A stretch of 13,348 bases of DNA, taken from IMG/VR virus record IMGVR_UViG_2565956618_000002; one strand, given 5' to 3'. Positions 1 through 13,348 of the stretch are shown here, piece by piece. This stretch comes from a virus (Duplodnaviria > Heunggongvirae > Uroviricota > Caudoviricetes). The notes under the pieces are model-generated. The model ran no database searches. It had not been told where the DNA came from and worked only from the letters and a program-made list of their open reading frames with translations. The stretch's first letter is position 1, and each line of letters opens with the position of its first letter. The position numbers were made by a program, and so were the translations under genes.

Positions 1-547
1 CGCACTCATCACCGCGATAGGTCCAGGTGCAGGTGTTGGCCAGCATGATACGTCCCGGAAAAACAGCGCCGTCCGTTTCCGTCGGCGTGGACAGTACAAA
101 AGAGGCACTCACCGCGCTCAGTTCGCTGCACTGCTCAATGCGCCAGCGGCTGATCACCTCCTGCTCCGGATCGGCGTCGCTGTTTCCGTTGACGAAGTTC
201 ACCGCATCCAGAAAACGGGCGTAAACCTTACGCCTGACCACCGTTCCGCCGACCAGACTCTGCAGATCTTCCACCATCCCGGTGACCATACCGTACAGGT
301 TAGAAACCGTCAGTGTCGGACGGGCAGCACTGCCCTTGCCGTTCAGTTCAAATCCCGTCCCCTGAATGGGGTATACCTGATACTGCCGCCCCTGCCAGAT
401 AACCGGCTCACCTTTTTCGTTCTGCTCATTACAGAAAAAATAACGTTCACCACCGACCTCTGTCAGATCGATTTCCCAGAGCACCACCTGGGCTGACTGA
501 GTGAGGCGTGTCGTCTCATGATGTGTTTCCTGTGGAATATCCTGCAT
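1..547 (-). CDS. L: Minor tail protein L (tail tip assembly), N-terminal part only; gene continues past the window start
   Basis: ATG at 547..545 preceded by AGGAGG. Manual translation gives MQDIPQETHHETTRLTQSAQVVLWEIDLTEVGGERYFFCNEQNEKGEP..., near-identical to lambda gpL as recalled. Follows M as in lambda. The ORF track misses it because there is no stop inside the window. Confidence 0.9.
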   Translation of the reverse strand, partial: MQDIPQETHHETTRLTQSAQVVLWEIDLTEVGGERYFFCNEQNEKGEPVIWQGRQYQVYPIQGTGFELNGKGSAARPTLTVSNLYGMVTGMVEDLQSLVGGTVVRRKVYARFLDAVNFVNGNSDADPEQEVISRWRIEQCSELSAVSASFVLSTPTETDGAVFPGRIMLANTCTWTYRGDEC

Positions 548-556
548 CAGAGCCTC

Positions 557-886
557 CTATGCCACGACCTGTTCAAAATCTGCCGTTATGGTTACCCACA
601 GCGCCCCCACGCTTGCCGACCATTTACGACAAACCACCCTGATCGGTTTCCAGTCATAAGGTGGCGTCCACTGAAATGCACGGACGCCACCGTGCCGTTC
701 CAGAAAGGCTTTTAAAGATGGGTGGTCACATTTACGAACACGTATCGTCACGCTGTAAGTCGACAACTGGTTATTCAGTCCCGCCGCACGACGCTGTTCA
801 TAACCATCGCCCAGCTTCACTGTCACCACTTTCGGCTCTGATACCACATTCATATCCGGGCGCACTTTCCAGTGAAACGTCTCCAT
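557..886 (-). CDS. M: Minor tail protein M
   Basis: 109-aa ORF (METFHWKVRPDMNVV...WTPPYDW...FEQVVA), same length as lambda gpM and clearly homologous. Its ATG overlaps the H stop codon (TAATG). Confidence 0.92.
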   Translation of the reverse strand: METFHWKVRPDMNVVSEPKVVTVKLGDGYEQRRAAGLNNQLSTYSVTIRVRKCDHPSLKAFLERHGGVRAFQWTPPYDWKPIRVVCRKWSASVGALWVTITADFEQVVA

Positions 887-3800
887 TACCGATATGCTCC
901 ACTTAACCGACCACCATCACGGGCCTGCTGTTGCATAAAGTCCGCTGCCGCTTTTTTCCCGAGGTCATAAACCGCCTTCAGGGCAGCCGGACCTATCTGC
1001 CCGTTCGTGCCATCGTTATTGATCTCGATGTTGTACTGCGGGGCAAACATCGCCATACCTGAACCACCAATATCCGCCACAACCCCCAGCTTACCGTCAG
1101 CACCACGACGCAGTGGCAGAATGGCTTCAGGTCCCGCTTCCCCCATCACACCCGCGCCTTTTGCAAAAGCAAAAAACGTCGGACGGTTAACCACCGTGCC
1201 ACTGTAACGACTCAAATCAGCAGACTGATAAATCCCCCCATTGGCATTCAGGGAAAGGCTGCTGAGATCAAATCCCAGTACACTGCCAATCCCTTTTATC
1301 GATTTCATCATGGTTGCCTGCGCCAGGATTTTCGCCATATCTGACAGCACAGAAGAGGTGAAGGATTTGAAATTGAGTTTGCCGGTAGTGACAAAAGTTG
1401 CCAGGCCATTTCCCATGTTGCTGAAGGCTGACGAGAACACCTGTTCTGCTGTTCCTGCCGTATTATCTGCATCCACGGTAAAATTCTGAAATGCACGCAG
1501 GACTCCGTTTTTCCAGTTACCCTGCACAACTTCAAGCTGTTGCCAGTAACGGCGATTCTCATTCAGTTGTCGGTTCAGGCTCTCCGTCAGCGCCTGCTCG
1601 GCCTTTCTGTAGTCATCCGTGTTATATGTTCCTTTCTGCTCACTATCCCGCCTCAACTGCTCCAGCTGTTGCTGGTATTTCTGGCGAAGACTCAGTTGTA
1701 CCTGATATCGCTGCCGCTGCTGATCACCCATACCCACCGTGGCGATATCCAGGTCATGTTGCTGACGCTGAGCGCGCTCTTCTTCAGCCAGTTGACTGGT
1801 CAGCTGAATTGTTTTTTTCTTCAGCTCGTTGAGTGCCGTCTGTTTCTGAAGCTCCTGCTGTTTTACATCCAGCAGCGTCAGTGCCTGAATCAGTTCATCT
1901 TTACGGGCCAGCACACTCTTTTCATCTGCCGTCAGTTTTTTCCCGTCCAGGTCGCTGATGCGCTGCTGCAGAGCCAGAAGCTGTTTATGCGCTTCTGTCA
2001 TCCTTTCCGTGGCAATGCCTGCTGACTGTCTGGCAGCAGCAATCTGTCCTTCCACCTGTGCCTGTTGCTGACTGTACTGCAGCAATAACCGGGTGGCCTC
2101 ATCATTACGGGGTTCGCGTGTTTTTTTCTTACCGGATGCCAGGGCTTTCTCGTAACGTTCATTTTCACGTTGTATCGCCGCATCCCTGACAGCCTGATCG
2201 GCGTACTGCATGGAATTAATACGCGCAATTTCACGCTGATGTCGTGCTGCTTCCGTTTCATTCATCCGGTTCAGTGCAGCATTTTCAGCATTACGGCGTT
2301 TCTGTTGCTCCTGATAATTCTGCTCTGCCTGCTCTTTTGCATCCTGCAAATCCTTCTGGCGTTTTTTCTCCTGAAGCTCGTTAAGACGCTGCTGATCGTA
2401 CTCAACCTGAGAAGATGATGCCGTCCAGGGGAGTCTTTTCGCCCGCGACACTTTCTCCTGTAAAGCGGAAATCTGTTCATCCAGCGAGTCTTCACGACCA
2501 ATATTCATGGCCGCATCCCAGAAACGACTCCATAAATCAGACAGATACTTCAGCGTACTGCCCAGCGCATTGAGGTTATTATCAATATCCGCAGTACGCC
2601 GACCGGTTTCCTCTGCCAGTGCAGACATGGCTATCCGTGCCGCATCACTGGACCGCCCCTGTTCCCCAAGGACGCGTATCTGCTCAAGCTGAGTGGCAGT
2701 AAGAAAATGCAGCTCATTGTCCAGAGCCTTCGCGGCATTTACAGGATCATCCTTCAGCCGCTTAAACTGATTTATGGTATCGCTGACCGACTGGCCAACC
2801 GATCGCTCCATCTGTGCGGCAGCTCTCGCCACCATACCGATATCGTTTCCACGAAATGCACCACTCCCCACCACCTGAGCCAGCGCACCGGCTGCAGCAT
2901 GTTGCGTGATACCATTCCCGGAAATAGCACGACTGAGCGTCCACAGCTGCCCGGCAGTGACTCCGGCATAATGCCCCGTCAGCGACAACTGGCGGTTAAA
3001 TTCTTCCCCCTCCTTCTGACCATCATACCAGGCTTTACCCAGACCATAGACGGCCGCGGCAATACCGCCAATAACCCCGCCCAGCATCATGCCTTTCGGT
3101 GACATCAGTGTGTCTATCCATCCGGCACGGTTAGCCAGCGTTATCCCGGATCCCCTCAGCGCACCTAAATTGCCGCGAGCCAGTTCAACTATCAGAACGC
3201 CTATCTCCTGGCGGGCCGCTGCACTTTTCAGACCCAGCGAATGCGTGGCTTTTCCTGCCTGCTCCATTTTGCGGATATACACTTCTGCAGCACTGCTTAC
3301 CCCCAGCTGGGCAGCCTTAGCACGAAGCAACTCAGAAGAAGAAAGATTCTGGCGGGTTGCCTGCTCTTTAAGCTGACGGATAAACGCCACTTTCTGTCGG
3401 GTAGCCTCTTCCTCAGCCTGTGTAAGAACACGGGTTTTCGCAGTAACCTCAGAAATCAGCGCCAGATAATCCTGCTGACCAATCCCGCCACTGTTTCTGG
3501 CCTGTCGGATCTGCTGCTGAATACGCTGTAATTCCTGCAGCCCCGCACTGGCCTGTTTCACACTGTCAATCTGACGATAAAACGCAGCAGCCGCTTTATC
3601 CTGAGCCTCCGCCAGAGCCATGGCCTGCGCCTGTTCCTCGCGCATTTTCTGGCTCAGTGCCTCCATGCGCTGGCGGGTTTTCTCCACCTCGCGGGCCATG
3701 CGTTCATGAGCCTGTGCGTTCTTCTCCACCGTCTGCGCATGGACGGATGCGGCTGTTGCAGCCGAAGAAGCTGCCTGCGTTGTCTGCCGGGCGGCCTGAG

Positions 3801-3951
3801 TCTGACGCTCCATAAAACGCTGCATACGGGCAGAAGACCGTTCTGCATCGCTGGCTGCACCATTCAGAAGGTTTTTGATACGGGGAATTTCATTTTTAAA
3901 CTCTGCCGCATCAATCCCCAAATCAATGACCAGGTTGGCTATCTGGTCCAT
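886..3951 (-). CDS. H: Tail tape measure protein (lambda gpH-like), about 1021 aa
   Basis: Long ORF. N-terminus MDQIANLVIDLGIDAAEF resembles lambda H MAEPVGDLVVDLSLDAARF; C-terminus INNDGTNGQIGPAALKAVYD...RDGG closely matches the lambda H C-terminus; centre is Q/E/R/K-rich coiled coil. Start placed at ATG 3951 (GGAGG upstream); the track's 3981 start is a TTG extension. Confidence 0.9.
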   Translation of the reverse strand: MDQIANLVIDLGIDAAEFKNEIPRIKNLLNGAASDAERSSARMQRFMERQTQAARQTTQAASSAATAASVHAQTVEKNAQAHERMAREVEKTRQRMEALSQKMREEQAQAMALAEAQDKAAAAFYRQIDSVKQASAGLQELQRIQQQIRQARNSGGIGQQDYLALISEVTAKTRVLTQAEEEATRQKVAFIRQLKEQATRQNLSSSELLRAKAAQLGVSSAAEVYIRKMEQAGKATHSLGLKSAAARQEIGVLIVELARGNLGALRGSGITLANRAGWIDTLMSPKGMMLGGVIGGIAAAVYGLGKAWYDGQKEGEEFNRQLSLTGHYAGVTAGQLWTLSRAISGNGITQHAAAGALAQVVGSGAFRGNDIGMVARAAAQMERSVGQSVSDTINQFKRLKDDPVNAAKALDNELHFLTATQLEQIRVLGEQGRSSDAARIAMSALAEETGRRTADIDNNLNALGSTLKYLSDLWSRFWDAAMNIGREDSLDEQISALQEKVSRAKRLPWTASSSQVEYDQQRLNELQEKKRQKDLQDAKEQAEQNYQEQQKRRNAENAALNRMNETEAARHQREIARINSMQYADQAVRDAAIQRENERYEKALASGKKKTREPRNDEATRLLLQYSQQQAQVEGQIAAARQSAGIATERMTEAHKQLLALQQRISDLDGKKLTADEKSVLARKDELIQALTLLDVKQQELQKQTALNELKKKTIQLTSQLAEEERAQRQQHDLDIATVGMGDQQRQRYQVQLSLRQKYQQQLEQLRRDSEQKGTYNTDDYRKAEQALTESLNRQLNENRRYWQQLEVVQGNWKNGVLRAFQNFTVDADNTAGTAEQVFSSAFSNMGNGLATFVTTGKLNFKSFTSSVLSDMAKILAQATMMKSIKGIGSVLGFDLSSLSLNANGGIYQSADLSRYSGTVVNRPTFFAFAKGAGVMGEAGPEAILPLRRGADGKLGVVADIGGSGMAMFAPQYNIEINNDGTNGQIGPAALKAVYDLGKKAAADFMQQQARDGGRLSGAYR

Positions 3952-4650
3952 AACGCACACCTCCGGAAATACCTTCCCCAAGATGCATCAGTTCTTCGTC
4001 CGTTCGCTCCGGTATCCCGTTCTCTTCCGGTAAAAGGCTGAAATCAGCCACCGCAGCATCACTGCTACCGGACACCATTCTCACGATCAATGCCTTCAGC
4101 GAGGCAAACTGCGCATCCATCCACACATCACTGAAGCTCTGCATCCGGAAATAATCGCCCCACTCACCAAGCTCAGTGGCCGACATTTCCGACAGCATCC
4201 GCCGCCAGTCTGCCCGCCGGAACTCCCGGGCAAGCCGCATGACAAACTGCATTTCCCGCGTCAGGACTTTTCCGGCGTCAGCACCTCATGCTCCAAATCC
4301 CCGGCATTCTCAATGACTCCCATACCGCTCAGCGACAGAACCATCTCCGCCCCCGCTCCCAGGGCATCATACGACCATGTTGTAATAACGGATGCGCAAA
4401 GCGTCTCAACATCCTGAGACTGTTCCGCATTCCACAGTGAGCGGGAAACCAGCCAGGCATTGATATCCATCCCCATCCGCAGAAAAGCAATCTGTCGTTC
4501 AGCCTCCGGCAGTTCTCCCTCTTCGGCATCAAACTTTGCCGTTCGCTGCTGAACAAACGCCAGATATTCAATTCTCTGCAGCCCGGACAGCTCACTGAGC
4601 ACCACGGACTGCTTTTCATAATTAAACGTGCCCTGTTTCAGAAACATCAT
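3923..4650 (-). CDS. Tail assembly chaperone G-T fusion made by programmed -1 frameshift near the end of G
   Basis: The T-frame ORF (MQFVMRLAREFRR...) is open upstream through the G stop in the -1 frame. Reading GGA AAA GTC CTG ACG CGG GAA ATG CAG... joins the frames at the run GGAAAAG (plus-strand 4267..4273). Position and arrangement match lambda G/GT. Confidence 0.7.
4261..4650 (-). CDS. G: Tail assembly chaperone G
   Basis: MMFLKQGTFNYEKQSVVLSELSGLQRIEYLA... resembles lambda gpG (MFLKTESFEHNGVTVTLSELSALQRIEHLA...). ATG at 4650 with GGAG upstream; the track start at 4689 is a TTG extension. Confidence 0.85.
   Translation of the reverse strand: MMFLKQGTFNYEKQSVVLSELSGLQRIEYLAFVQQRTAKFDAEEGELPEAERQIAFLRMGMDINAWLVSRSLWNAEQSQDVETLCASVITTWSYDALGAGAEMVLSLSGMGVIENAGDLEHEVLTPEKS
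4267..4273 (-). other. Candidate -1 frameshift slippery site GGAAAAG
   Basis: Minus strand reads ACG CCG GAA AAG TCC TGA in the G frame; the T frame is GGA AAA GTC.... Lambda uses GGGAAAG at the equivalent place. Confidence 0.5.
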
Positions 4651-4707: not shown

Positions 4708-5451
4708 TTAACCTGCGGCGCTGACAGCCACCGCAGCCACTGCCACAAAATCGCCGTCAGAAGTCATGCCCACAATGCTGACACTGCCCTGCTTCACGCC
4801 TTTCACCGTGGCCACAAGCCCGTTCAGGGTCACCGTGGCAGTCTGTGGATCTGTCGAATGCACACTGATCGCTTTGTCACTGGCTCCGTCAGGTTTTACT
4901 GTAAAGGTCAGCGTGGTGGTTGCTCCCACTTTTACACTGGCAGATGCCGGTGCCACCGTCAGCCCGGTAACGCTCACTGTTTCAGTGCCTTCCTCTGCCA
5001 GATACGGACGCCCCACACCGCTGATTTTCACTGTGCGGGTCATCACGTCTTTTGAGGCAATGGTTTTACCCAGTGAGCTCAGCCAGCCACGGAAAACATC
5101 AACAGTGCCGTTGGGATATTTGATACGAAACGCGCAGACTTCACCGGAGTCGAACAACTGAACCAGTTTTTTCTGCCCGCTGTCACCCGGACGCCAGGCC
5201 AGCGTCGCCGAAGTATCACCGACGGATTTCTGCCCCTGGGTTGTCGTTTTCCAGTCTGCATCTTCATCATCGAGATAAGTGTCATCTTCTGCATCAGCGG
5301 TCATTTCGCCAGGTTGCAGATCCTTCACCATCGCAAGACGCAGCCAGTCAGTGTCCGATAAAGGGTTCGCAAACGCATCGCCCTTGCCGGTGTACATCCA
5401 GAACGTCGTTCCCGCACCTTTCGTTTTTGCCAGTGGATTTGGTGTGGTCAT
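4708..5451 (-). CDS. V: Major tail protein V with C-terminal Ig-like domain
   Basis: MTTPNPLAKTKGAGTTFWMYTGKGDAFANPLSDTDW...LDDEDADW...YPNGTVDVFRGW... closely matches lambda gpV. ATG at 5451 with AGGAGGT 5 nt upstream; the track start at 5457 is GTG. Confidence 0.93.
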   Translation of the reverse strand: MTTPNPLAKTKGAGTTFWMYTGKGDAFANPLSDTDWLRLAMVKDLQPGEMTADAEDDTYLDDEDADWKTTTQGQKSVGDTSATLAWRPGDSGQKKLVQLFDSGEVCAFRIKYPNGTVDVFRGWLSSLGKTIASKDVMTRTVKISGVGRPYLAEEGTETVSVTGLTVAPASASVKVGATTTLTFTVKPDGASDKAISVHSTDPQTATVTLNGLVATVKGVKQGSVSIVGMTSDGDFVAVAAVAVSAAG

Positions 5452-7128: not shown

Positions 7129-9087
7129 TTACGCCGTACATTTCACCAGACCGCGGTGATCAACTGGCGCGACACCGGCGTCAATACGCACTTTCGTTGT
7201 CACGCCATCCACACTGAAGCCCTCCATCTGATCAATATATGGCGTATCCACACCGTTGAGATAAGCCACTTCAATCGTATCGGAGCCTTTTGACGCAGCC
7301 AGGTAGAAGGTGGTCTGGCTGTTATCATCAAGACGAGGCTCTGCAATAACGGTCGCAAAATCTTTCACCGGGTTAATAATACCGGCGTTAATGTCAGCCC
7401 CCTTGACACTTGAGGAGCGAATGACCTGGTTAGCAACAGACTCCATCGCCGTCGGTACCAGTACGAACGCAGGACGAATATTCAGATGACGCTCCCCCTC
7501 TTTCTGAACGCGCATCAACTGGCGGGCTTTATCCAGCGATGCCACGTCCATTGCAGCGCTCTCCAGTACGTTTGCATGTTTCGCTTTATCGAACAGACTT
7601 ACATTATCTGTGGAGATTTTCGGGTTAGACGTCAGAATGGCATAAACCAGATCGGCAATAGTGGATTTCGCCGCACGGCCCAGTTTCATCGGGACATCGG
7701 TCAGCATATTCAGATCATCATTGATAATGGCCTGACGGGTGATACTGAACAGCTCGCCATAGGTCGCCAGTGCAATAGTGGCCTGTTTATCTCCGGTGGT
7801 GACGTATTTATATTCCGCCCCTTCACGCACCTGACGCAGAGCACTGAAGCCCCCCATACCCACACGATGGGCAATTTTAAAATCAGACAACTGACCTTTC
7901 CGCGTCCACTGTTCATAGGTTTCAGGGGCATCTTCCCAGCCCTGCAGAATGGCTTTGTTCGCAACATCCAGCAGAATATTACCGAAGTCAGACGTACTGT
8001 GTGTGAACGCCGCACCGACCATCTGCATCGGGTTATAACCGGAAACCCCAATACCCCGTTCAGTTAGTGACATACGGGCATATTCACGCAGGGTCATCCC
8101 GTTGTAGACATTATCACGTTCGGTTTTTTCAAATCCGGCACGCGCCATCAGCGCCTGGCGGATCCCGTCCCCCACAAAATTACCGTTACCGGCATAAATA
8201 TGAGCCGGGGTATTTTTATTGGATGGCGTGGACTCGCGCCCCATCTCGTTCAACAGCTTTTCACGGGCCTGCTCCAGCGAACATTCAGGATCGGCAAGAC
8301 ACTGGGCCTGCAGCATCTGATAACGCCCGCCAAACATGGCAAACAGATCATTAATACCGTTTACACGCGCTTTTTGCTCTGCCAGTACCTGCGCACGGAT
8401 ACTGTTTTCATCCACCACGGGTGCTGCTGCCTGCACTGGCGTCCGGGAGGCTGCAGGTTCATCATCCTGTACGCGTGGAGCACTGTTGCGTGGCGGAGTA
8501 ATCATGTTTCGAATGGATTCCGGCATCTTTTTAAATTCCTCTGTACGTTTTGACTGAATACATGCCATTGCCTTAACGGCTGGTGTCACCTGATCAGCAA
8601 ATCCCTGTGCCAGACATTCGGCACCGGACATCCAGGTCTCATCCGCCAGCATGGCAGCAATTTCATCGGTGGTTTTCCCGGTTTTCTGTGCATAAGCGGG
8701 TAACAGAACCGCCTCAACTTTATCGAGCAGGTCGGCATAGGTGCGCATGTCCTCCGCATCACCGCCCGTAAAGCCAAATGGTTTATGAATCATCATGAAG
8801 GAGTTTTCCGGCATAATGACCGGGTTTCCCACCATCGCAATGACCGACGCCATTGACGCCGCCACACCGTCGACATAAACGGTAATGGACGCACCATGTG
8901 TTTTCAGTGCATTAAAAATGGCGATGCCTTCAAAGACATCGCCACCCGGTGAATTAATATGGAGATTAATGTGGGTGATATCGCCCAGTGCATTCAGATC
9001 ACTGATAAACTGCTTCGCTGTAACACCCCAGAAACCAATCTCGTCATAAATATAAATATCCGCGTCACTCTGGTGACCTGCCTGCAT
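7129..9087 (-). CDS. Prohead protease (ClpP-like) fused in frame to an HK97-fold major capsid protein
   Basis: N-terminal part has ClpP-like motifs (IYIYDEIGFWGVTAKQFISDL, INSPGGDVFEGIAIFNA, GVAASMASVIAMVG, MIHKP); C-terminal ~340 aa has major-capsid character. Start tentatively ATG 9087 (MQAGHQSDADIYIY), about 652 aa; weak RBS, so the start is uncertain. Confidence 0.8.
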   Translation of the reverse strand: MQAGHQSDADIYIYDEIGFWGVTAKQFISDLNALGDITHINLHINSPGGDVFEGIAIFNALKTHGASITVYVDGVAASMASVIAMVGNPVIMPENSFMMIHKPFGFTGGDAEDMRTYADLLDKVEAVLLPAYAQKTGKTTDEIAAMLADETWMSGAECLAQGFADQVTPAVKAMACIQSKRTEEFKKMPESIRNMITPPRNSAPRVQDDEPAASRTPVQAAAPVVDENSIRAQVLAEQKARVNGINDLFAMFGGRYQMLQAQCLADPECSLEQAREKLLNEMGRESTPSNKNTPAHIYAGNGNFVGDGIRQALMARAGFEKTERDNVYNGMTLREYARMSLTERGIGVSGYNPMQMVGAAFTHSTSDFGNILLDVANKAILQGWEDAPETYEQWTRKGQLSDFKIAHRVGMGGFSALRQVREGAEYKYVTTGDKQATIALATYGELFSITRQAIINDDLNMLTDVPMKLGRAAKSTIADLVYAILTSNPKISTDNVSLFDKAKHANVLESAAMDVASLDKARQLMRVQKEGERHLNIRPAFVLVPTAMESVANQVIRSSSVKGADINAGIINPVKDFATVIAEPRLDDNSQTTFYLAASKGSDTIEVAYLNGVDTPYIDQMEGFSVDGVTTKVRIDAGVAPVDHRGLVKCTA

Positions 9088-9100
9088 CCTGAACCAGGAA

Positions 9101-10609
9101 TTATTCTTCGGACTGGTCGTCGGTGTGCTGCGGCTCCTGTCGTTTCGTTGCGGCACTGCTGCCTCCTTTATCACTGGCCGGATCGGTATCAAATACCAGA
9201 TCCAGCTTGCGGTTTTCATCAATTTCGGCCTTGCGCCGACGTTTGACATCATCCGGATTACGACCACCTGCACGTACCCAGTCTGATTCTGTCGCCGCTC
9301 CACCACGAATCTGAATTTTCCAGGCCTCAGCCTCCTTAACAGGGTCAATCCACGGCATCACCGGTCCGGAATACACCGCGGTATACAGTGAAGATCGGTC
9401 CAGATCGCGGGGTAGCCTGATAACACCGGATGCCACAGCCTGTTTCAGCCAGGCACGGTACATCGGGCGGGTGACGGCACCAATAAACCAGTCCTGCAGG
9501 ATCAGGTAGCCATCAGTAGATTCAACCAGCTCCTGACGCTGGGCGCTGTAAGTGCCGTTATAGTTGCGCGCTGTACTGGAAAAACTCAGACGACTGCCCG
9601 CAGCCACGGCACGCAACTGACCATTACGAAAAGTTTCAAGGTTAGGATTGGGGCGATCCGACTTCACCATTCCGATTTCTTCGCCGGGTTTCAGATCGTC
9701 GTAAATAATGCCTGGCTGAATGGTAAGCTCGCGTTCATTCTCCTTGCTGTCATTACCATCCGTTTCATAGCTCTGTCCGTCGCCTTTCCGGATGTACATC
9801 CCCAGAGCAGCGGCGATCCTTGCTGCAGTCAGCTCAGAATCTTCATACTCTTTCAGAGCACTGAGGCGGATCAGCACACCGGACAACAAAGACGTCCCGC
9901 GCATCTGGTGCAGACGGCGAACAAATTTAAGATGCAGCATTCGCTCTGCATCCACTTCTTTGGTTTCCATCTGCCGCCCGGATACGGGACGGCTTTTATA
10001 CACCAGATATTTTTCGGGACGCCCCCAGTCATCAACAAACACGCCCTGATTCAGCCTGTTGCTCTCATCACTGGTCATGGGAATAAAGTCCGGCTCGAGC
10101 GCCTCCAGCCAGAAATGAACACCGGCAGAAGGCGTCAAGCTGTTTATGCGCCCGGAAACCATCTGGGCAAACACCTCACCATCGCGCAGCCAGGTACGCA
10201 GCATCAGACGTTCCAGCATCGGACGGGTAAACTGCCCGGTGACTTCCGGACTGACAGACCATTCACTCCATCGGGTGCGTATCTCCGCTGCCAGATCACG
10301 GGCAATGGCCCCATTGCGTAATACCGGATGTGGCTCGACAATAATCCCGTTTTTCCCCACCACCCGTTCTTCCAGCTTGTCAAATACACCAATGACCAGA
10401 TCGTGGTTGTTATCAAGGTAACGGGCCTGCTCACGTAACGACACGGCCCCGTACTGGCTTAACTGGTCGGCAGTTCGGTTCTCCCGTCGGGCTTTGTGTG
10501 TCCGCGTCGTTTTTACGGCCTCATAAGCCTGAATCACCGCACGGGAACGCAGCCTTGCCGCTTTCCATCCTGGTGAAAAAACGCCAATCACATCATCAAG
10601 AATTGCCAT
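9101..10609 (-). CDS. Portal protein
   Basis: About 503-aa ORF between the gpW-like gene and the protease/capsid gene. ATG at 10609 overlaps the W stop (TGATG). Not similar to lambda gpB by eye, so the call rests on position and size. Confidence 0.8.
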   Translation of the reverse strand: MAILDDVIGVFSPGWKAARLRSRAVIQAYEAVKTTRTHKARRENRTADQLSQYGAVSLREQARYLDNNHDLVIGVFDKLEERVVGKNGIIVEPHPVLRNGAIARDLAAEIRTRWSEWSVSPEVTGQFTRPMLERLMLRTWLRDGEVFAQMVSGRINSLTPSAGVHFWLEALEPDFIPMTSDESNRLNQGVFVDDWGRPEKYLVYKSRPVSGRQMETKEVDAERMLHLKFVRRLHQMRGTSLLSGVLIRLSALKEYEDSELTAARIAAALGMYIRKGDGQSYETDGNDSKENERELTIQPGIIYDDLKPGEEIGMVKSDRPNPNLETFRNGQLRAVAAGSRLSFSSTARNYNGTYSAQRQELVESTDGYLILQDWFIGAVTRPMYRAWLKQAVASGVIRLPRDLDRSSLYTAVYSGPVMPWIDPVKEAEAWKIQIRGGAATESDWVRAGGRNPDDVKRRRKAEIDENRKLDLVFDTDPASDKGGSSAATKRQEPQHTDDQSEE

Positions 10610-10821: not shown

Positions 10822-12650
10822 AACCATCCTCCGGAAGTCAGCCAGGGGTTAACATCGTCAGTTACTGTTTTCTTCCGTTTTTGTTTTTTAACAGGCGTGG
10901 ATACCGGCTCCGGTGAGGGTGACGGTTCGGTACTGTCCGGGACACACTCCAGCCAGGTTTCCCGGCTCGCCCACTCCGGTGCATCCGGCCAGCGGATCTT
11001 TTCGTATCCATGCAGAATGACCAGCGCCTCGGCATACACCATCAGGTCAAAAGCTTCGTTGGCACCGCGACCCGGCTTACTCCATTTCCCGTCACTGCTC
11101 CGCTCTTCATACGTCAGTTCGTCGTAAAACCAGCTCCCCAGCCAGTCAGGGAAATGCACATAGCCTGGACCTGGCGAGTCACGCCATAACGCGTTATTCA
11201 CCCGGTCTTTCAGGGCATCCGTCTGAAGAAGCCAGAGCGGCACATCACCTGCGGCCTGCGCCCGGCGGCCCGTTCGTCCGGTGTTATCAGGGAATGTACG
11301 GCTGATCAGTTTTGCGCGCCGGATGCTGTCGCCCTTAAACAGGTAAATACGTTTACCAAGGCCATCACGACGGCAACGACGCCAGAATTTATAGGCATTA
11401 TCAGTGACCCCGTCTTCACCGCCGGAATCCACCGCCATTGCCATCAGTCGCATTTGTTGAGAAGGATCGGAGGCCAGCGGCCAGCTTTTATGAAAAACAT
11501 CCGTCAGCAGGACATCCCAGTCTTCCGGATAGCTGGCCGGATCAATTCGCTGGCTCTCCCCGTCGCAGTCACTGCGCAATGACTGCGTGATGTTGTAACG
11601 ATCAATAATCCAGCGTTCGCCACGGCTGCCATAGCCCGTTACCTGAACCACAAAACGGCGATGACGTCCCGCCTGCACATCCACTGTCGCCACAAGGAAA
11701 TTAACGCCATCCGGAACACTGCGGGAAGGAACTGGCTCTGCCCGCTGCTCAAGCAGTTCACTTTTTCGTTGCTCCATGCTGGCACGAGGAAGATAAGGCA
11801 ATCCCCAGTCGGTGTTGATAACCGCCCTGAGTGTTTCTTCGCTTCCTGTCGCTTCATACTCCTGTTCTGCAGTCAGTAATTTGTAAACCAGTTGCGCCCA
11901 GGTCTGATACGCAGCAGCTGGCCCTTCCATCCAGAAACTGGCGATACGGGAGCGGCGCGGTTCACCGGAAACGTTGCCGTTACGATCAATGACCTGACCT
12001 TCACGTAACCAGACTCCTGCACTATTGAGCTCACGCTTTTTCTCCGCAGTGATAATGCCGCTGCAGTGCGGGCAAAGTAGATACGCCGCCTCACTGGCTT
12101 TAAAGGGATCCGGTTCATTACGGTAGCCGGTCATGGCATCCATAGCTGGCTGAAAATATTCACCGCAGTGCGGACATGGCCAGTACCAGCGGCGGCGGTC
12201 ACCACGATTGTAAAGGGAAAGAATACCAGTCGTCGGTGGCGCTTCATGAGGCGACTTACGTCGCCATTTGCTGTCGCAGATGTCACGTCCCGGCGAGCTC
12301 TCCACCAGAGTCATCCCGGCGGACATAAATGTGGTGGTACGTTTTGAGGCCAGGGAGAAACCATCACCCTCGCTGTCGATATTCTCCGGAAAACGGTCGT
12401 AATCGGTTAAGGCGACAAACCGGTAATCCGACGACGACATAATGTTGACCGAGGGCCAACCAATTTTAAGGAACGAGCCATCCCTGAACGTCTTATCATG
12501 GACATTATTGTCGTTACGACGTGGACTCATTCTTTTCTTTACCGCCGCACTGCTTCTGAACGTTCTGTCGAGGCGCTTTTTAGAATGCTCGCGGGCCTTA
12601 TCTGATGCGCCGCGCGATAAATGCACTCTATCTTGTGCGATAAATGGCAT
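10818..12650 (-). CDS. Large terminase subunit (lambda gpA family), apparently 5'-truncated and possibly inactive
   Basis: 610-aa ORF with strong gpA-like regions (WPCPHCGEYF zinc-finger-like motif as lambda ACPHCGEE; VALTDYDRF near the lambda Walker B VAGYDE). No P-loop/Walker A motif is present, and similarity starts around lambda residue ~95-125. The frame is closed 30 bp below the invertase stop. Confidence 0.85.
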   Translation of the reverse strand: MPFIAQDRVHLSRGASDKAREHSKKRLDRTFRSSAAVKKRMSPRRNDNNVHDKTFRDGSFLKIGWPSVNIMSSSDYRFVALTDYDRFPENIDSEGDGFSLASKRTTTFMSAGMTLVESSPGRDICDSKWRRKSPHEAPPTTGILSLYNRGDRRRWYWPCPHCGEYFQPAMDAMTGYRNEPDPFKASEAAYLLCPHCSGIITAEKKRELNSAGVWLREGQVIDRNGNVSGEPRRSRIASFWMEGPAAAYQTWAQLVYKLLTAEQEYEATGSEETLRAVINTDWGLPYLPRASMEQRKSELLEQRAEPVPSRSVPDGVNFLVATVDVQAGRHRRFVVQVTGYGSRGERWIIDRYNITQSLRSDCDGESQRIDPASYPEDWDVLLTDVFHKSWPLASDPSQQMRLMAMAVDSGGEDGVTDNAYKFWRRCRRDGLGKRIYLFKGDSIRRAKLISRTFPDNTGRTGRRAQAAGDVPLWLLQTDALKDRVNNALWRDSPGPGYVHFPDWLGSWFYDELTYEERSSDGKWSKPGRGANEAFDLMVYAEALVILHGYEKIRWPDAPEWASRETWLECVPDSTEPSPSPEPVSTPVKKQKRKKTVTDDVNPWLTSGGWL

Positions 12651-12680
12651 CCACGCGGCGTTTCATTATTTGAAAAAGAA

Positions 12681-13253
12681 TTACATTTCAGGTTGCGTTA
12701 TGACAGTCCCAACAGGGTGATAGCGGTAGATCGTTGACAGTCCAATATCATAGATAATTGCCAGCCGCTTTCTGTCATACCCTTTCTGGAGCAATCTTGC
12801 GATCTGCTCATGCTGCTCCTTCGTCAGTTTCGGGCGACGTCCTCCAACTCTTCCTTGTGCTCGCGCAGCAGCCAGTCCTGCCAGCGTGCGCTCAACTATC
12901 AGTTCACGCTCCATTTCTGCCAGTGCACCCATCATATGAAAAAAGAACCTTCCCATCGGAGTGCTGGTATCGATTGAATCCGTCAGACTGCGAAAATTGA
13001 CACCTTTTGCGCGTAGCTCTTCTGTGAGAGCAATGAGGTGTTTCATTCTTCTACCCAACCGATCCAGCTTCCAGACCACCAATGTATCCCCTCTTTTAAG
13101 GCACTTTAAAGCGCGTTTCAGGCCTGGTCGTTCCGACTTGGTTCCGCTCATTTTGTCCTCAAAAATCTGTTCACATCCTGCGCACATTAATGCATTGCGT
13201 TGCAAATCTGTGTTTTGGTCATTTGTTGACACACGTATGTAGCCAATCAGCAT
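12681..13253 (-). CDS. pin: Serine DNA invertase of the Pin/Gin/Hin/Cin family
   Basis: MLIGYIRVSTNDQNTDLQRNALMCAGCEQIFEDK...GDTLVVWKLDRLGR...GRFFFHMMGALAEMERELIVERTLAGLAAARAQGR.GGRRPKLT... is almost co-linear with e14 Pin and Salmonella Hin as recalled; catalytic Ser in YIRVST. ATG at 13253; the track's extension to 13343 starts at a non-ATG codon and is not used. Confidence 0.93.
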   Translation of the reverse strand: MLIGYIRVSTNDQNTDLQRNALMCAGCEQIFEDKMSGTKSERPGLKRALKCLKRGDTLVVWKLDRLGRRMKHLIALTEELRAKGVNFRSLTDSIDTSTPMGRFFFHMMGALAEMERELIVERTLAGLAAARAQGRVGGRRPKLTKEQHEQIARLLQKGYDRKRLAIIYDIGLSTIYRYHPVGTVITQPEM

Positions 13254-13307
13254 TAAAAATACTCCCTTTTGAGTGGTTAAAGTACTGAGATAATGTGGGG
13301 AGGATTT

Positions 13308-13333
13308 GAGAGATAAACGTTGGTTTGGGGGAA
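13308..13333 (-). other. Candidate invertase crossover site (hix/gix-like), about 55 bp upstream of pin
   Basis: Minus strand reads TTCCCCCAAACCAACGTTTATCTCTC; it matches hixL (TTCTTGAAAACCAAGGTTTTTGATAA) at 15 of 26 positions, including the AAACC-AA-(G)GTTT core. The right half is diverged. Confidence 0.3.
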
Positions 13334-13348
13334 GGCTCTGCATTGCCT

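What the first reader, a model, noticed from the sequence alone, without database searches (positions are those of the whole stretch)
886..3951. Tape measure protein about 170 residues longer than lambda H, with lambda-like ends
The N- and C-terminal segments match lambda H, but the Q/E/R/K-rich coiled-coil centre is expanded (about 1021 aa against the 853 aa I recall for lambda). Because tape-measure length sets tail length, this predicts a proportionally longer tail than lambda. The conserved C-terminus suggests the same tail-tip and ejection interactions.
Basis: partly seen in the sequence, partly recalled or inferred. Interest (0 to 1): 0.35.

Follow-up and report, generated by a model that had tools for sequence, protein, structure and literature searches.

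The report
Ordinary long-form lambdoid tape measure gene
This is an intact, already-annotated tail tape measure gene of a very common E. coli prophage type (mEp460/cdtI/Ayreon); its 168 extra residues over lambda H are one block near the N-terminus, also present in phage phi80, and not an expanded centre, so the finding is ordinary.

Summary
The gene is real. It lies on the minus strand at 886-3951 and encodes 1021 aa, with the Pfam domains TMP_2, TMP_4 and Tape_meas_lam_C. It sits between the G/T chaperone genes and M/L. Both ends align with lambda H (853 aa) to within one residue, so the extra length is internal and not a mis-called start or stop.

The extra length is not in the central coiled coil. 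It is one contiguous 171-aa block (aa 57-227), rich in Ala/Gln/Glu/Arg, free of proline and predicted helical. The block lies between the conserved N-terminal 56 aa and the TMP_2 domain. The centre is only +15 aa and the C-terminal tail is -16 aa. The same block is present in phi80, Gifsy-1/2, Fels-1 and mEp043/213, and absent from lambda and N15.

The last ~46 codons are lambda-like at the DNA level. They correspond to the gpH helix that binds gpI in lambda cryo-EM structures.

The protein is 100% identical to an annotated E. coli ATCC 25922 gene and about 99% identical in DNA to the tape measure genes of phages mEp460 and Ayreon. About a third of complete E. coli genomes carry it.

A tail about 25 nm longer than lambda's is a reasonable inference from the ruler rule but has not been shown. 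The only published figure, for Ayreon ("+/-120 nm"), does not support it. Verdict: already known, low interest.

The parts
886..3951 (-). Tail length tape measure protein gene (1021 aa plus stop). The ATG at 3951 overlaps the 3' end of T by 29 nt, and the stop shares its last base with the M start codon.
   Evidence: Annotated with the same boundaries in mEp460 and E. coli ATCC 25922 (WP_000372037.1, 100% nt identity).
3784..3951 (-). Conserved N-terminal segment, aa 1-56. It is expected to be the head-proximal end of the ruler.
   Evidence: 33% identity to lambda H 3-57. 24/56 identical to phi80.
3271..3783 (-). N-proximal 171-aa block, aa 57-227. It is absent from lambda H and N15 gp16 and accounts for the whole net length excess. 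Composition is Ala 20%, Gln 14%, Glu 9%, Arg 9%, with no Pro. Predicted alpha-helical.
   Evidence: tblastn finds it in phi80, Gifsy-1/2, Fels-1, mEp043, mEp213, LLS, and Klebsiella and Aeromonas phages. AlphaFold2 predicts helices 15-153, 159-200, 205-216 and 219-237, at low confidence. There is no tandem repeat and no significant self-similarity.
2674..3270 (-). TMP_2 domain (PF06791), aa 228-426. It includes the hydrophobic Gly/Ala-rich stretch at about aa 283-312 (window 3016-3105), equivalent to lambda H 116-140.
   Evidence: The hydrophobic segment is placed by alignment to lambda H, and the lambda segment is described in PMC12617516.
1522..2673 (-). Central Q/E/R/K-rich region, aa 427-810, including TMP_4 (616-693). 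Its length is nearly the same as in lambda (384 vs 369 aa).
   Evidence: A crude heptad score of my own is high here, which is weak evidence.
1297..1521 (-). Tape_meas_lam_C domain (PF09718), aa 811-885.
1030..1296 (-). Gly-rich C-proximal region, aa 886-974. It corresponds to the region of lambda H near the H to H* cleavage (about lambda 690-710). It is closer to Gifsy-2 and HK97 than to lambda.
   Evidence: The cleavage region is from PMC12617516. Cleavage in this protein was not tested.
886..1029 (-). Lambda-like C-terminal ~47 aa plus stop. It is the equivalent of the gpH helix (lambda 818-849) that sits on the gpI trimer in the tail tip.
   Evidence: 32/48 identical to lambda. DNA similarity to lambda begins at about window 1024. 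Matches PDB 9e7m chain Ha at aa 986-1016. Literature.
4261..4650 (-). Tail assembly chaperone G gene (Phage_TAC_2).
   Evidence: Gene call in L008.
3923..4252 (-). T reading frame (Phage_tail_T). It is in the -1 frame relative to G and open across the G stop. It is probably expressed as a G-T frameshift fusion as in lambda.
   Evidence: The fusion is inferred and not shown.
557..886 (-). Distal tail protein M gene (Phage_min_tail), 55% identical to lambda M.
1..547 (-). Tail tip protein L gene, 5' part (it runs off the contig end), 91% identical to lambda L.
4708..5451 (-). Major tail tube protein V gene (Phage_TTP_12 plus a Big_2 Ig-like domain), 55% identical to lambda V. This is the subunit whose stacking the tape measure limits.

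Best explanation
Window 886-3951 (minus strand) encodes the tail tape measure protein of a lambdoid prophage of the mEp460/cdtI/Ayreon type. This type combines a Gifsy-2-like head module with a lambda-like tail module.

Expected mechanism, by homology with lambda gpH:
- The protein is a largely alpha-helical rod.
- Its C-terminal helix (aa ~975-1021) anchors on the gpI/gpL tail-tip complex.
- The G and G-T chaperones coat it.
- gpV hexamer rings stack around it until its N-terminal end is reached.
- On infection it is ejected to help form the trans-envelope channel. The hydrophobic segment at aa ~283-312 is expected to take part in this.

Compared with lambda H it is the 'long form' of the family. 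It carries one extra 171-residue helical block (aa 57-227) between the conserved N-terminal 56 residues and the TMP_2 domain. Phi80 (1045 aa) and Gifsy-2 carry the same block; lambda (853 aa) and N15 (838 aa) lack it. Everything downstream has lambda-like length.

If the block is part of the ruler at ~0.15 nm per residue, the tail tube should be about 25 nm longer. That is about 6 more gpV rings, or ~38 against lambda's 32.

Shown: gene identity, domain order, position of the extra block, distribution of the block, and the mosaic lambda-like 3' end. Inferred: the assembly mechanism, the helical rod conformation and the longer tail.
For: - Domains and family.
- Alignments to lambda H with flush ends.
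- Landmark segment lengths in six tape measure proteins.
- The block is found by tblastn in phi80, Gifsy-1/2, Fels-1, mEp043/213, LLS and others (48-69% id).
- Helical prediction for aa 15-237.
- No internal duplication.
- Gene order terL-portal-protease/capsid-...-Z-U-V-G-T-H-M-L.
- Identity to lambda tail proteins: V 55%, U 54%, Z 50%, M 55%, L 91%.
- C-terminal match to the solved gpH fragment. gpH 818-842/849 binds the gpI trimer (PMC12617516; PMC10721106). gpI is conserved in mEp460.
- Ruler rule: deletions or duplications in lambda H and in the TM4 and TP901-1 tape measure proteins change tail length in proportion (114 aa to ~17-20 nm). Sources: PMC1796659, PMC5099701.
- Lambda has 32 gpV rings.
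- The identical gene lies in an apparently complete prophage of E. coli ATCC 25922. Viable phages mEp460, Ayreon, Tritos, cdtI and phi458 carry genes 95-99% identical in DNA.
Against: - The only tail measurement found for a phage with this protein is Ayreon's '+/-120 nm'. That is shorter than lambda's ~150 nm, not longer. It is an unreplicated approximate value in a genome announcement, so it weakens the longer-tail inference without overturning it.
- The AlphaFold2 model has low confidence (mean pLDDT 52.8).
- No experiment in lambda tests whether residues inserted this close to the N-terminus count towards length.
- In this contig terL is truncated, so this particular copy may not be made into particles.
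Confidence: 0.85

Rival explanations
1. One reading: the central Q/E/R/K-rich coiled coil is expanded relative to lambda H.
For: The central region (aa ~500-800) is indeed rich in Q/E/R/K. It carries a ~32-aa segment (about aa 760-790) that lambda, phi80 and N15 lack.
Against: The net length of the region between TMP_2 and Tape_meas_lam_C is 384 aa, against 369 in lambda. The local insertion is offset by deletions elsewhere, and the C-tail is 16 aa shorter. 171 aa of the 168-aa net excess lie at aa 57-227, upstream of TMP_2.
Confidence: 0.03
2. The extra length is an annotation artefact: a mis-called start or stop adds a terminal extension.
For: An in-frame TTG 30 nt upstream (3981) would add 10 residues.
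Against: The ATG at 3951 has a GGAGGT Shine-Dalgarno sequence. The first 56 aa align with the first 57 of lambda H, and the last residues align flush. The same boundaries are used in phage and RefSeq records.
Confidence: 0.01
3. The N-proximal block is not part of the ruler. It would fold back, sit in the neck or terminator region, or serve only in ejection and channel formation. Tails would then be no longer than lambda's despite the longer protein.
For: The Ayreon tail is reported as '+/-120 nm', against ~150 nm for lambda. In TP901-1, about 127 residues at the ends do not contribute to length. AlphaFold2 breaks the block into four helices, which could pack.
Against: The Ayreon value is rough and has no stated method. 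In TP901-1, deletion or duplication of N-terminal regions changed tail length in proportion. The block has the Ala/Gln/Glu/Arg-rich, proline-free composition of ruler segments. From my memory only: phi80, which carries the block, was reported to have a longer tail than lambda, with the difference mapping near H (Youderian thesis, cited by Katsura and Hendrix 1984). I could not check this here.
Confidence: 0.1
4. This copy is a relic in a defective prophage and makes no particles, so its length has no phenotypic consequence in this strain.
For: In this contig terL lacks its first ~90 codons (GpA_ATPase profile positions 66-247 only) and is preceded by a Pin-like serine recombinase gene. No terS or cos is present in the contig.
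Against: The tape measure ORF is intact and 100% identical to the copy in ATCC 25922, where terL is full length. All 13 other structural ORFs are intact. The junction occurs in none of 5,426 complete E. coli genomes, and the window is a whole 13.3-kb contig of a draft assembly. The junction may therefore be a misassembly or a recent inversion. This rival concerns expression, not what the gene is.
Confidence: 0.15

Closest known systems
Tape measure proteins of phages mEp460 (YP_007112087.1), Ayreon, Tritos, cdtI and vB_EcoS-569R4, and E. coli ATCC 25922 WP_000372037.1
   Same: Same gene. 3066 nt; 100% nt identity in ATCC 25922 and 96.5-99.4% in the phages. Same neighbours (T upstream, M downstream) and same annotated boundaries.
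   Different: Nothing of substance. In this contig the upstream terL is truncated.
Phage phi80 tape measure protein (YP_007947940.1, 1045 aa)
   Same: Same architecture, including the 171/172-aa N-proximal block (77/171 identical) and a TMP_2 domain of identical length (142/199 identical).
   Different: The central and C-terminal parts are diverged (about 20-27% identity). The phi80 C-terminus is not lambda-like (8/47 identical in the last 48 aa, against 32/48 for lambda).
Salmonella phage Gifsy-2 tape measure protein (STM1041, 995 aa as annotated)
   Same: Closest full-length relative outside E. coli among those compared: 63% identity overall, with the block, the ~32-aa central insertion and the same C-proximal region. 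The head module is also Gifsy-2-like (protease-capsid fusion).
   Different: The annotated Gifsy-2 protein lacks the first ~32 residues, probably because its start is called too far downstream. Around the INNDGTNGQIG motif it differs, where the window matches lambda exactly.
Lambda gpH (NP_040595.1, 853 aa)
   Same: Homologous N-terminal 56 aa, TMP_2, Tape_meas_lam_C and C-terminal gpI-binding helix. The distance from the start of TMP_2 to the C-terminus is the same within 5 aa (794 vs 799). Same gene order G-T-H-M-L.
   Different: Lambda lacks aa 57-227. It is only 25% identical over the shared 730 aa. Lambda-level DNA similarity is confined to the last ~46 codons.

Membership tests
Lambda-type tail tape measure protein (Pfam TMP_2 + Tape_meas_lam_C; PHROG 24) | TMP_2 domain (PF06791) above the gathering score | tested here: met
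   169.9 bits against a cut-off of 30.2; aa 228-426 cover profile positions 2-208 of 208
Lambda-type tail tape measure protein (Pfam TMP_2 + Tape_meas_lam_C; PHROG 24) | Tape_meas_lam_C domain (PF09718) above the gathering score | tested here: met
   78.9 bits against a cut-off of 23; aa 811-885
Lambda-type tail tape measure protein (Pfam TMP_2 + Tape_meas_lam_C; PHROG 24) | Gene lies between the G/T tail assembly chaperone genes and the distal tail protein gene M, downstream of the tail tube gene V | tested here: met
   V 4708-5451, G 4261-4650, T 3923-4252, H 886-3951, M 557-886 and L 1-547, all on the minus strand
Lambda-type tail tape measure protein (Pfam TMP_2 + Tape_meas_lam_C; PHROG 24) | Programmed -1 frameshift site joining G to T just upstream | tested here: inconclusive
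   The T frame is -1 relative to G and open across the G stop. The site at the equivalent position reads CCGGAAAAG, where lambda has GCGGGAAAG. Frameshifting itself cannot be tested here.
Lambda-type tail tape measure protein (Pfam TMP_2 + Tape_meas_lam_C; PHROG 24) | Long, predominantly alpha-helical protein | tested here: met
   AlphaFold2 on aa 1-500 is almost entirely helical, including a helix at 15-153, but mean pLDDT is only 52.8. Residues 501-1021 were not modelled. The centre has a proline-poor, Q/E/R/K-rich composition.
Lambda-type tail tape measure protein (Pfam TMP_2 + Tape_meas_lam_C; PHROG 24) | C-terminal helix that docks on the gpI trimer in the tail tip | tested here: met
   aa 986-1016 match the 32-residue gpH chain of PDB 9e7m (E 1.7e-5). 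32/48 C-terminal residues are identical to lambda. The partner gpI is conserved in mEp460. This is sequence-level evidence only; the contact itself was not tested.
Lambda-type tail tape measure protein (Pfam TMP_2 + Tape_meas_lam_C; PHROG 24) | Protein length sets tail length | not testable with these tools
   It needs EM of particles and deletion mutants. The only published value for a phage with this protein is Ayreon at '+/-120 nm'.
Lambda-type tail tape measure protein (Pfam TMP_2 + Tape_meas_lam_C; PHROG 24) | C-terminal proteolytic processing (H to H*) | not testable with these tools
   The Gly-rich region equivalent to the lambda cleavage zone is present (aa ~886-965), but cleavage is a biochemical property.
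Long-form subgroup (phi80 / Gifsy / mEp460 type) | About 170-aa helical block between the N-terminal ~56 aa and TMP_2 | tested here: met
   171 aa in the window, 172 in phi80, 168 in Gifsy-2, and 0 in lambda and N15. tblastn hits to the block alone in 37 phage records.

The most novel reading that the evidence does not exclude
The 171-residue N-proximal block might not be counted by the ruler. Phages of the mEp460/Ayreon type, and by extension phi80, would then build lambda-length or shorter tails with a tape measure protein about 20% longer. The block would serve another role, for example in the neck or in the trans-envelope ejection channel. That would be a natural exception to the rule that tape measure length is proportional to tail length within one homologous family.
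Probability: 0.1. Interest if true: 0.45.

Novelty: already known. Interest (0 to 1): 0.08.

Why it matters
It matters little. Tape measure length variation among lambdoid phages, and its link to tail length, is textbook. This exact protein is already annotated in sequenced phages, and a copy at 90% or more DNA identity sits in about a third of complete E. coli genomes. The useful residue is a correction: the lambda/N15 'short form' and the phi80/Gifsy/mEp460 'long form' differ by one discrete N-proximal helical block, with the rest of the ruler conserved in length. That makes these phages a clean natural pair for testing whether N-proximal residues count towards tail length. In addition, the 3' end of H is a lambda-like mosaic patch that travels with L and I, consistent with co-transfer of interacting tail-tip parts.

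Tried and rejected
- **Internal duplication as the source of the block.** BLASTP of aa 54-295 against the rest of the protein and against lambda H gave nothing below E 0.03. TRF found no tandem repeats. Rejected.
- **Length distribution from the 5.8-billion protein search.** I queried with aa 1-300. The hits were nearly all partial proteins of 525 aa or less, so they showed only the host range of the block (E. coli, Shigella, Salmonella, Yersinia, Klebsiella), not full lengths.
- **Coiled-coil prediction.** No dedicated tool was available. I used a crude heptad score of my own and AlphaFold2 secondary structure. Both suggest helix, and neither is strong.
- **Tail-length literature.**
  - The cdtI paper (PMC1964815), the phi80/Lula paper (PMC3510586) and Xu et al. 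2014 (PMC3907469) are not held.
  - The phi458 paper shows EM but gives no numbers.
  - Searches gave nothing on phi80 or Gifsy tail lengths.
  - One search was a badly framed search and returned poly(A)-tail papers.
- **Source of the terL/recombinase junction.** An exact 38-mer scan of genome contigs found nothing, and megablast against complete E. coli genomes found no record spanning it. A protein look-up showed that the window is the entire contig KI531065.1 of GCA_000488315.1. The other side of the rearrangement therefore cannot be seen.
Full report
**Observation**

The ORF list shows one long frame on the minus strand, 886..3981. Translation and the upstream sequence place the likely start at the ATG at 3951, 8 nt after GGAGGT.

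Pfam finds TMP_2 (aa 228-426, E 8e-50), TMP_4 (616-693) and Tape_meas_lam_C (811-885, E 3e-22). PHROG 24, 'tail length tape measure protein', matches from residue 1 to 1021. Lambda H, taken from NC_001416, is 853 aa.

**Where the extra residues are**

- BLASTP against lambda H gives two collinear pieces: q2-56 with h3-57 (33% identity), and q289-1021 with h122-853 (25% identity, E 2e-50).
- A global alignment pairs the first and last residues of both proteins, so neither end overhangs. It places all large query-only gaps between q54 and q295.
- Pfam landmarks agree. TMP_2 starts at 228 here and at 54 in lambda. Tape_meas_lam_C starts at 811 here and at 627 in lambda.
- A six-protein alignment gives these segment lengths (N-terminus | block | TMP_2 | centre | lam_C | C-tail):

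| Protein | N-term | Block | TMP_2 | Centre | lam_C | C-tail |
|---|---|---|---|---|---|---|
| Window | 56 | 171 | 199 | 384 | 75 | 135 |
| phi80 | 57 | 172 | 199 | 391 | 73 | 151 |
| Gifsy-2 | 24 | 168 | 199 | 381 | 72 | 150 |
| Lambda | 54 | 0 | 203 | 369 | 75 | 151 |
| N15 | 55 | 0 | 203 | 374 | 75 | 128 |

The 168-residue excess over lambda is therefore one discrete block, aa 57-227 (window 3271-3783). It lies between the conserved N-terminus and TMP_2. The central Q/E/R/K-rich region is essentially lambda-sized.

Its description of an expanded centre is wrong.

**Nature of the block**

- Composition is 20% Ala, 14% Gln, 9% Glu and 9% Arg, with no proline.
- It has no significant similarity to the rest of the protein or to lambda H. 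The gene has no tandem repeats. It is therefore not a recent internal duplication.
- AlphaFold2 on aa 1-500 with a 22-sequence alignment predicts almost pure helix. One helix runs 15-153, followed by 159-200, 205-216 and 219-237. Confidence is low (mean pLDDT 52.8), so this is only supportive.
- tblastn with the block alone finds it in 37 phage records. These are the mEp460/cdtI/Ayreon group (97-100%), Fels-1 and Gifsy-1/2 (64-69%), and phi80, LLS, mEp043, mEp213, and Klebsiella, Enterobacter and Aeromonas phages (46-51%).
- The block is a conserved feature of a 'long form' of the family. The classical phage phi80 (1045 aa) belongs to it.

**C-terminus**

- The last 48 residues are 32/48 identical to lambda but only 8/47 identical to phi80.
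- Nucleotide similarity to lambda (77% over 1028 nt) begins about 46 codons before the stop and continues through M and L. Megablast also picked up a 61-nt stretch there that is 92-93% identical to lambda-group phages.
- Residues 986-1016 match the 32-residue gpH chain resolved in the Ur-lambda tip structure 9e7m.
- In lambda, gpH 818-842/849 forms a three-helix coiled coil seated on the gpI trimer inside the tip (PMC10721106; PMC12617516).
- L in the window is 91% identical to lambda L, against 55% for M and V.
- In mEp460, which is 97% identical to the window over 93% of its length, gpI is 74% identical to lambda gpI and its last 60 residues are identical.
The window itself does not contain I.

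**Context and how common the gene is**

- The window encodes, all on the minus strand: a truncated terL, a small W-like ORF, the portal, a ClpP-protease/capsid fusion, a cement protein, a Gifsy-2-family head-tail protein, then Z, U, V, G, T, H, M and the start of L.
- The whole window is 96-98.5% identical over more than 90% of its length to phages cdtI, Tritos, HannyBb, Ayreon and mEp460. The tape measure gene is annotated in them with the same boundaries.
- The gene is 100% identical in E. coli ATCC 25922 and other strains. 1826 of 5426 complete E. coli genomes hold a copy covering at least 80% of it.
- This is an already known and routinely annotated gene.

**Tail length**

- The ruler rule is well established. 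Deletions or duplications in lambda H, TM4 gp17 and the TP901-1 tape measure protein change tail length in proportion, at about 0.15 nm per residue (PMC1796659; PMC5099701).
- Lambda has 32 gpV rings and a tail of about 150 nm (PMC9022992).
- Applying the rule, 171 residues predict about 25 nm, or about 6 more rings.
- This is inference only. The one published number I found for a phage with this same protein is Ayreon, 'long flexible tails (+/-120 nm)' (PMC5764929). It does not support a longer tail. It is also an approximate value with no stated method, so I treat it as weak contrary evidence.
- From memory only, and not checked here: phi80 was reported to have a longer tail than lambda, with the determinant mapping near H.

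**Verdict**

The feature is ordinary and already known. The only open point is whether the N-proximal block counts towards tail length. A ring count would settle it.

**Other things seen**

- terL in this contig begins at GpA_ATPase profile position 66 and is preceded by a Pin-like serine recombinase gene.
- The junction (about 12599-12603) is not found in any complete E. coli genome or in the species-representative genomes.
- The window is an entire 13,348-bp contig of a draft assembly.
- The gene orientation is what an inversion between terL and the pin-proximal end of the tail-fibre region would give, compared with the ATCC 25922 layout. Misassembly is equally possible.

Noticed in passing
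window 12471-13348 (junction about 12599-12603): terL is truncated: the 610-aa ORF at 10818-12650 matches GpA_ATPase only from profile position 66. It is directly preceded on the same strand by a Pin-like serine recombinase ORF (12681-13343; Resolvase + HTH_7). No complete E. coli genome spans this junction. The window is a whole contig (KI531065.1, GCA_000488315.1). The layout fits an inversion of the structural module relative to pin, when compared with ATCC 25922, but it could be a misassembly.
   Followed up: partly
window 4251-4275: At the position of lambda's G-T slippery site GCGGGAAAG the window has CCGGAAAAG, a non-canonical heptamer GGAAAAG. A lambda-like GGGAAAT lies just after the G stop codon. 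The T frame is open in -1 across the G stop. Whether and where frameshifting occurs is unknown.
   Followed up: partly
window 1-1024: There is a mosaic boundary inside the tape measure gene. DNA similarity to lambda (77%) starts about 46 codons before the H stop and runs through M and L. At the protein level L is 91% identical to lambda and M only 55%. The parts that touch in the lambda tail tip (the H C-terminus, L and I) are the most lambda-like.
   Followed up: partly
window 7129-9156: A single gene encodes a ClpP-like prohead protease fused to a major capsid protein (CLP_protease + Phage_capsid_4), as described for Gifsy-2. The head module is unrelated to lambda's C/Nu3/E arrangement, while the tail module is lambda-like.
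   Followed up: no
window 1980-2217: A 238-bp stretch of the tape measure gene is 100% identical to an unannotated stretch near the end of the 254-kb Aeromonas phage AP1 record (MT713136, 251326-251563). This is most likely E. coli contamination or an assembly artefact in that record.
   Followed up: partly
window 1501-2500: AT skew on the plus strand is strongly negative (-0.30 to -0.35). This coincides with the central Q/K/E/R-rich part of the tape measure gene on the minus strand. It is probably a codon-composition effect (A-rich CAG, AAA and GAA codons) and not a separate feature.
   Followed up: no
L005 3872-6859 (Gifsy-2 STM1041): The annotated Gifsy-2 tape measure protein (995 aa) lacks the conserved first ~32 residues seen in the window, phi80 and lambda proteins. 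Its start codon is probably called too far downstream.
   Followed up: no
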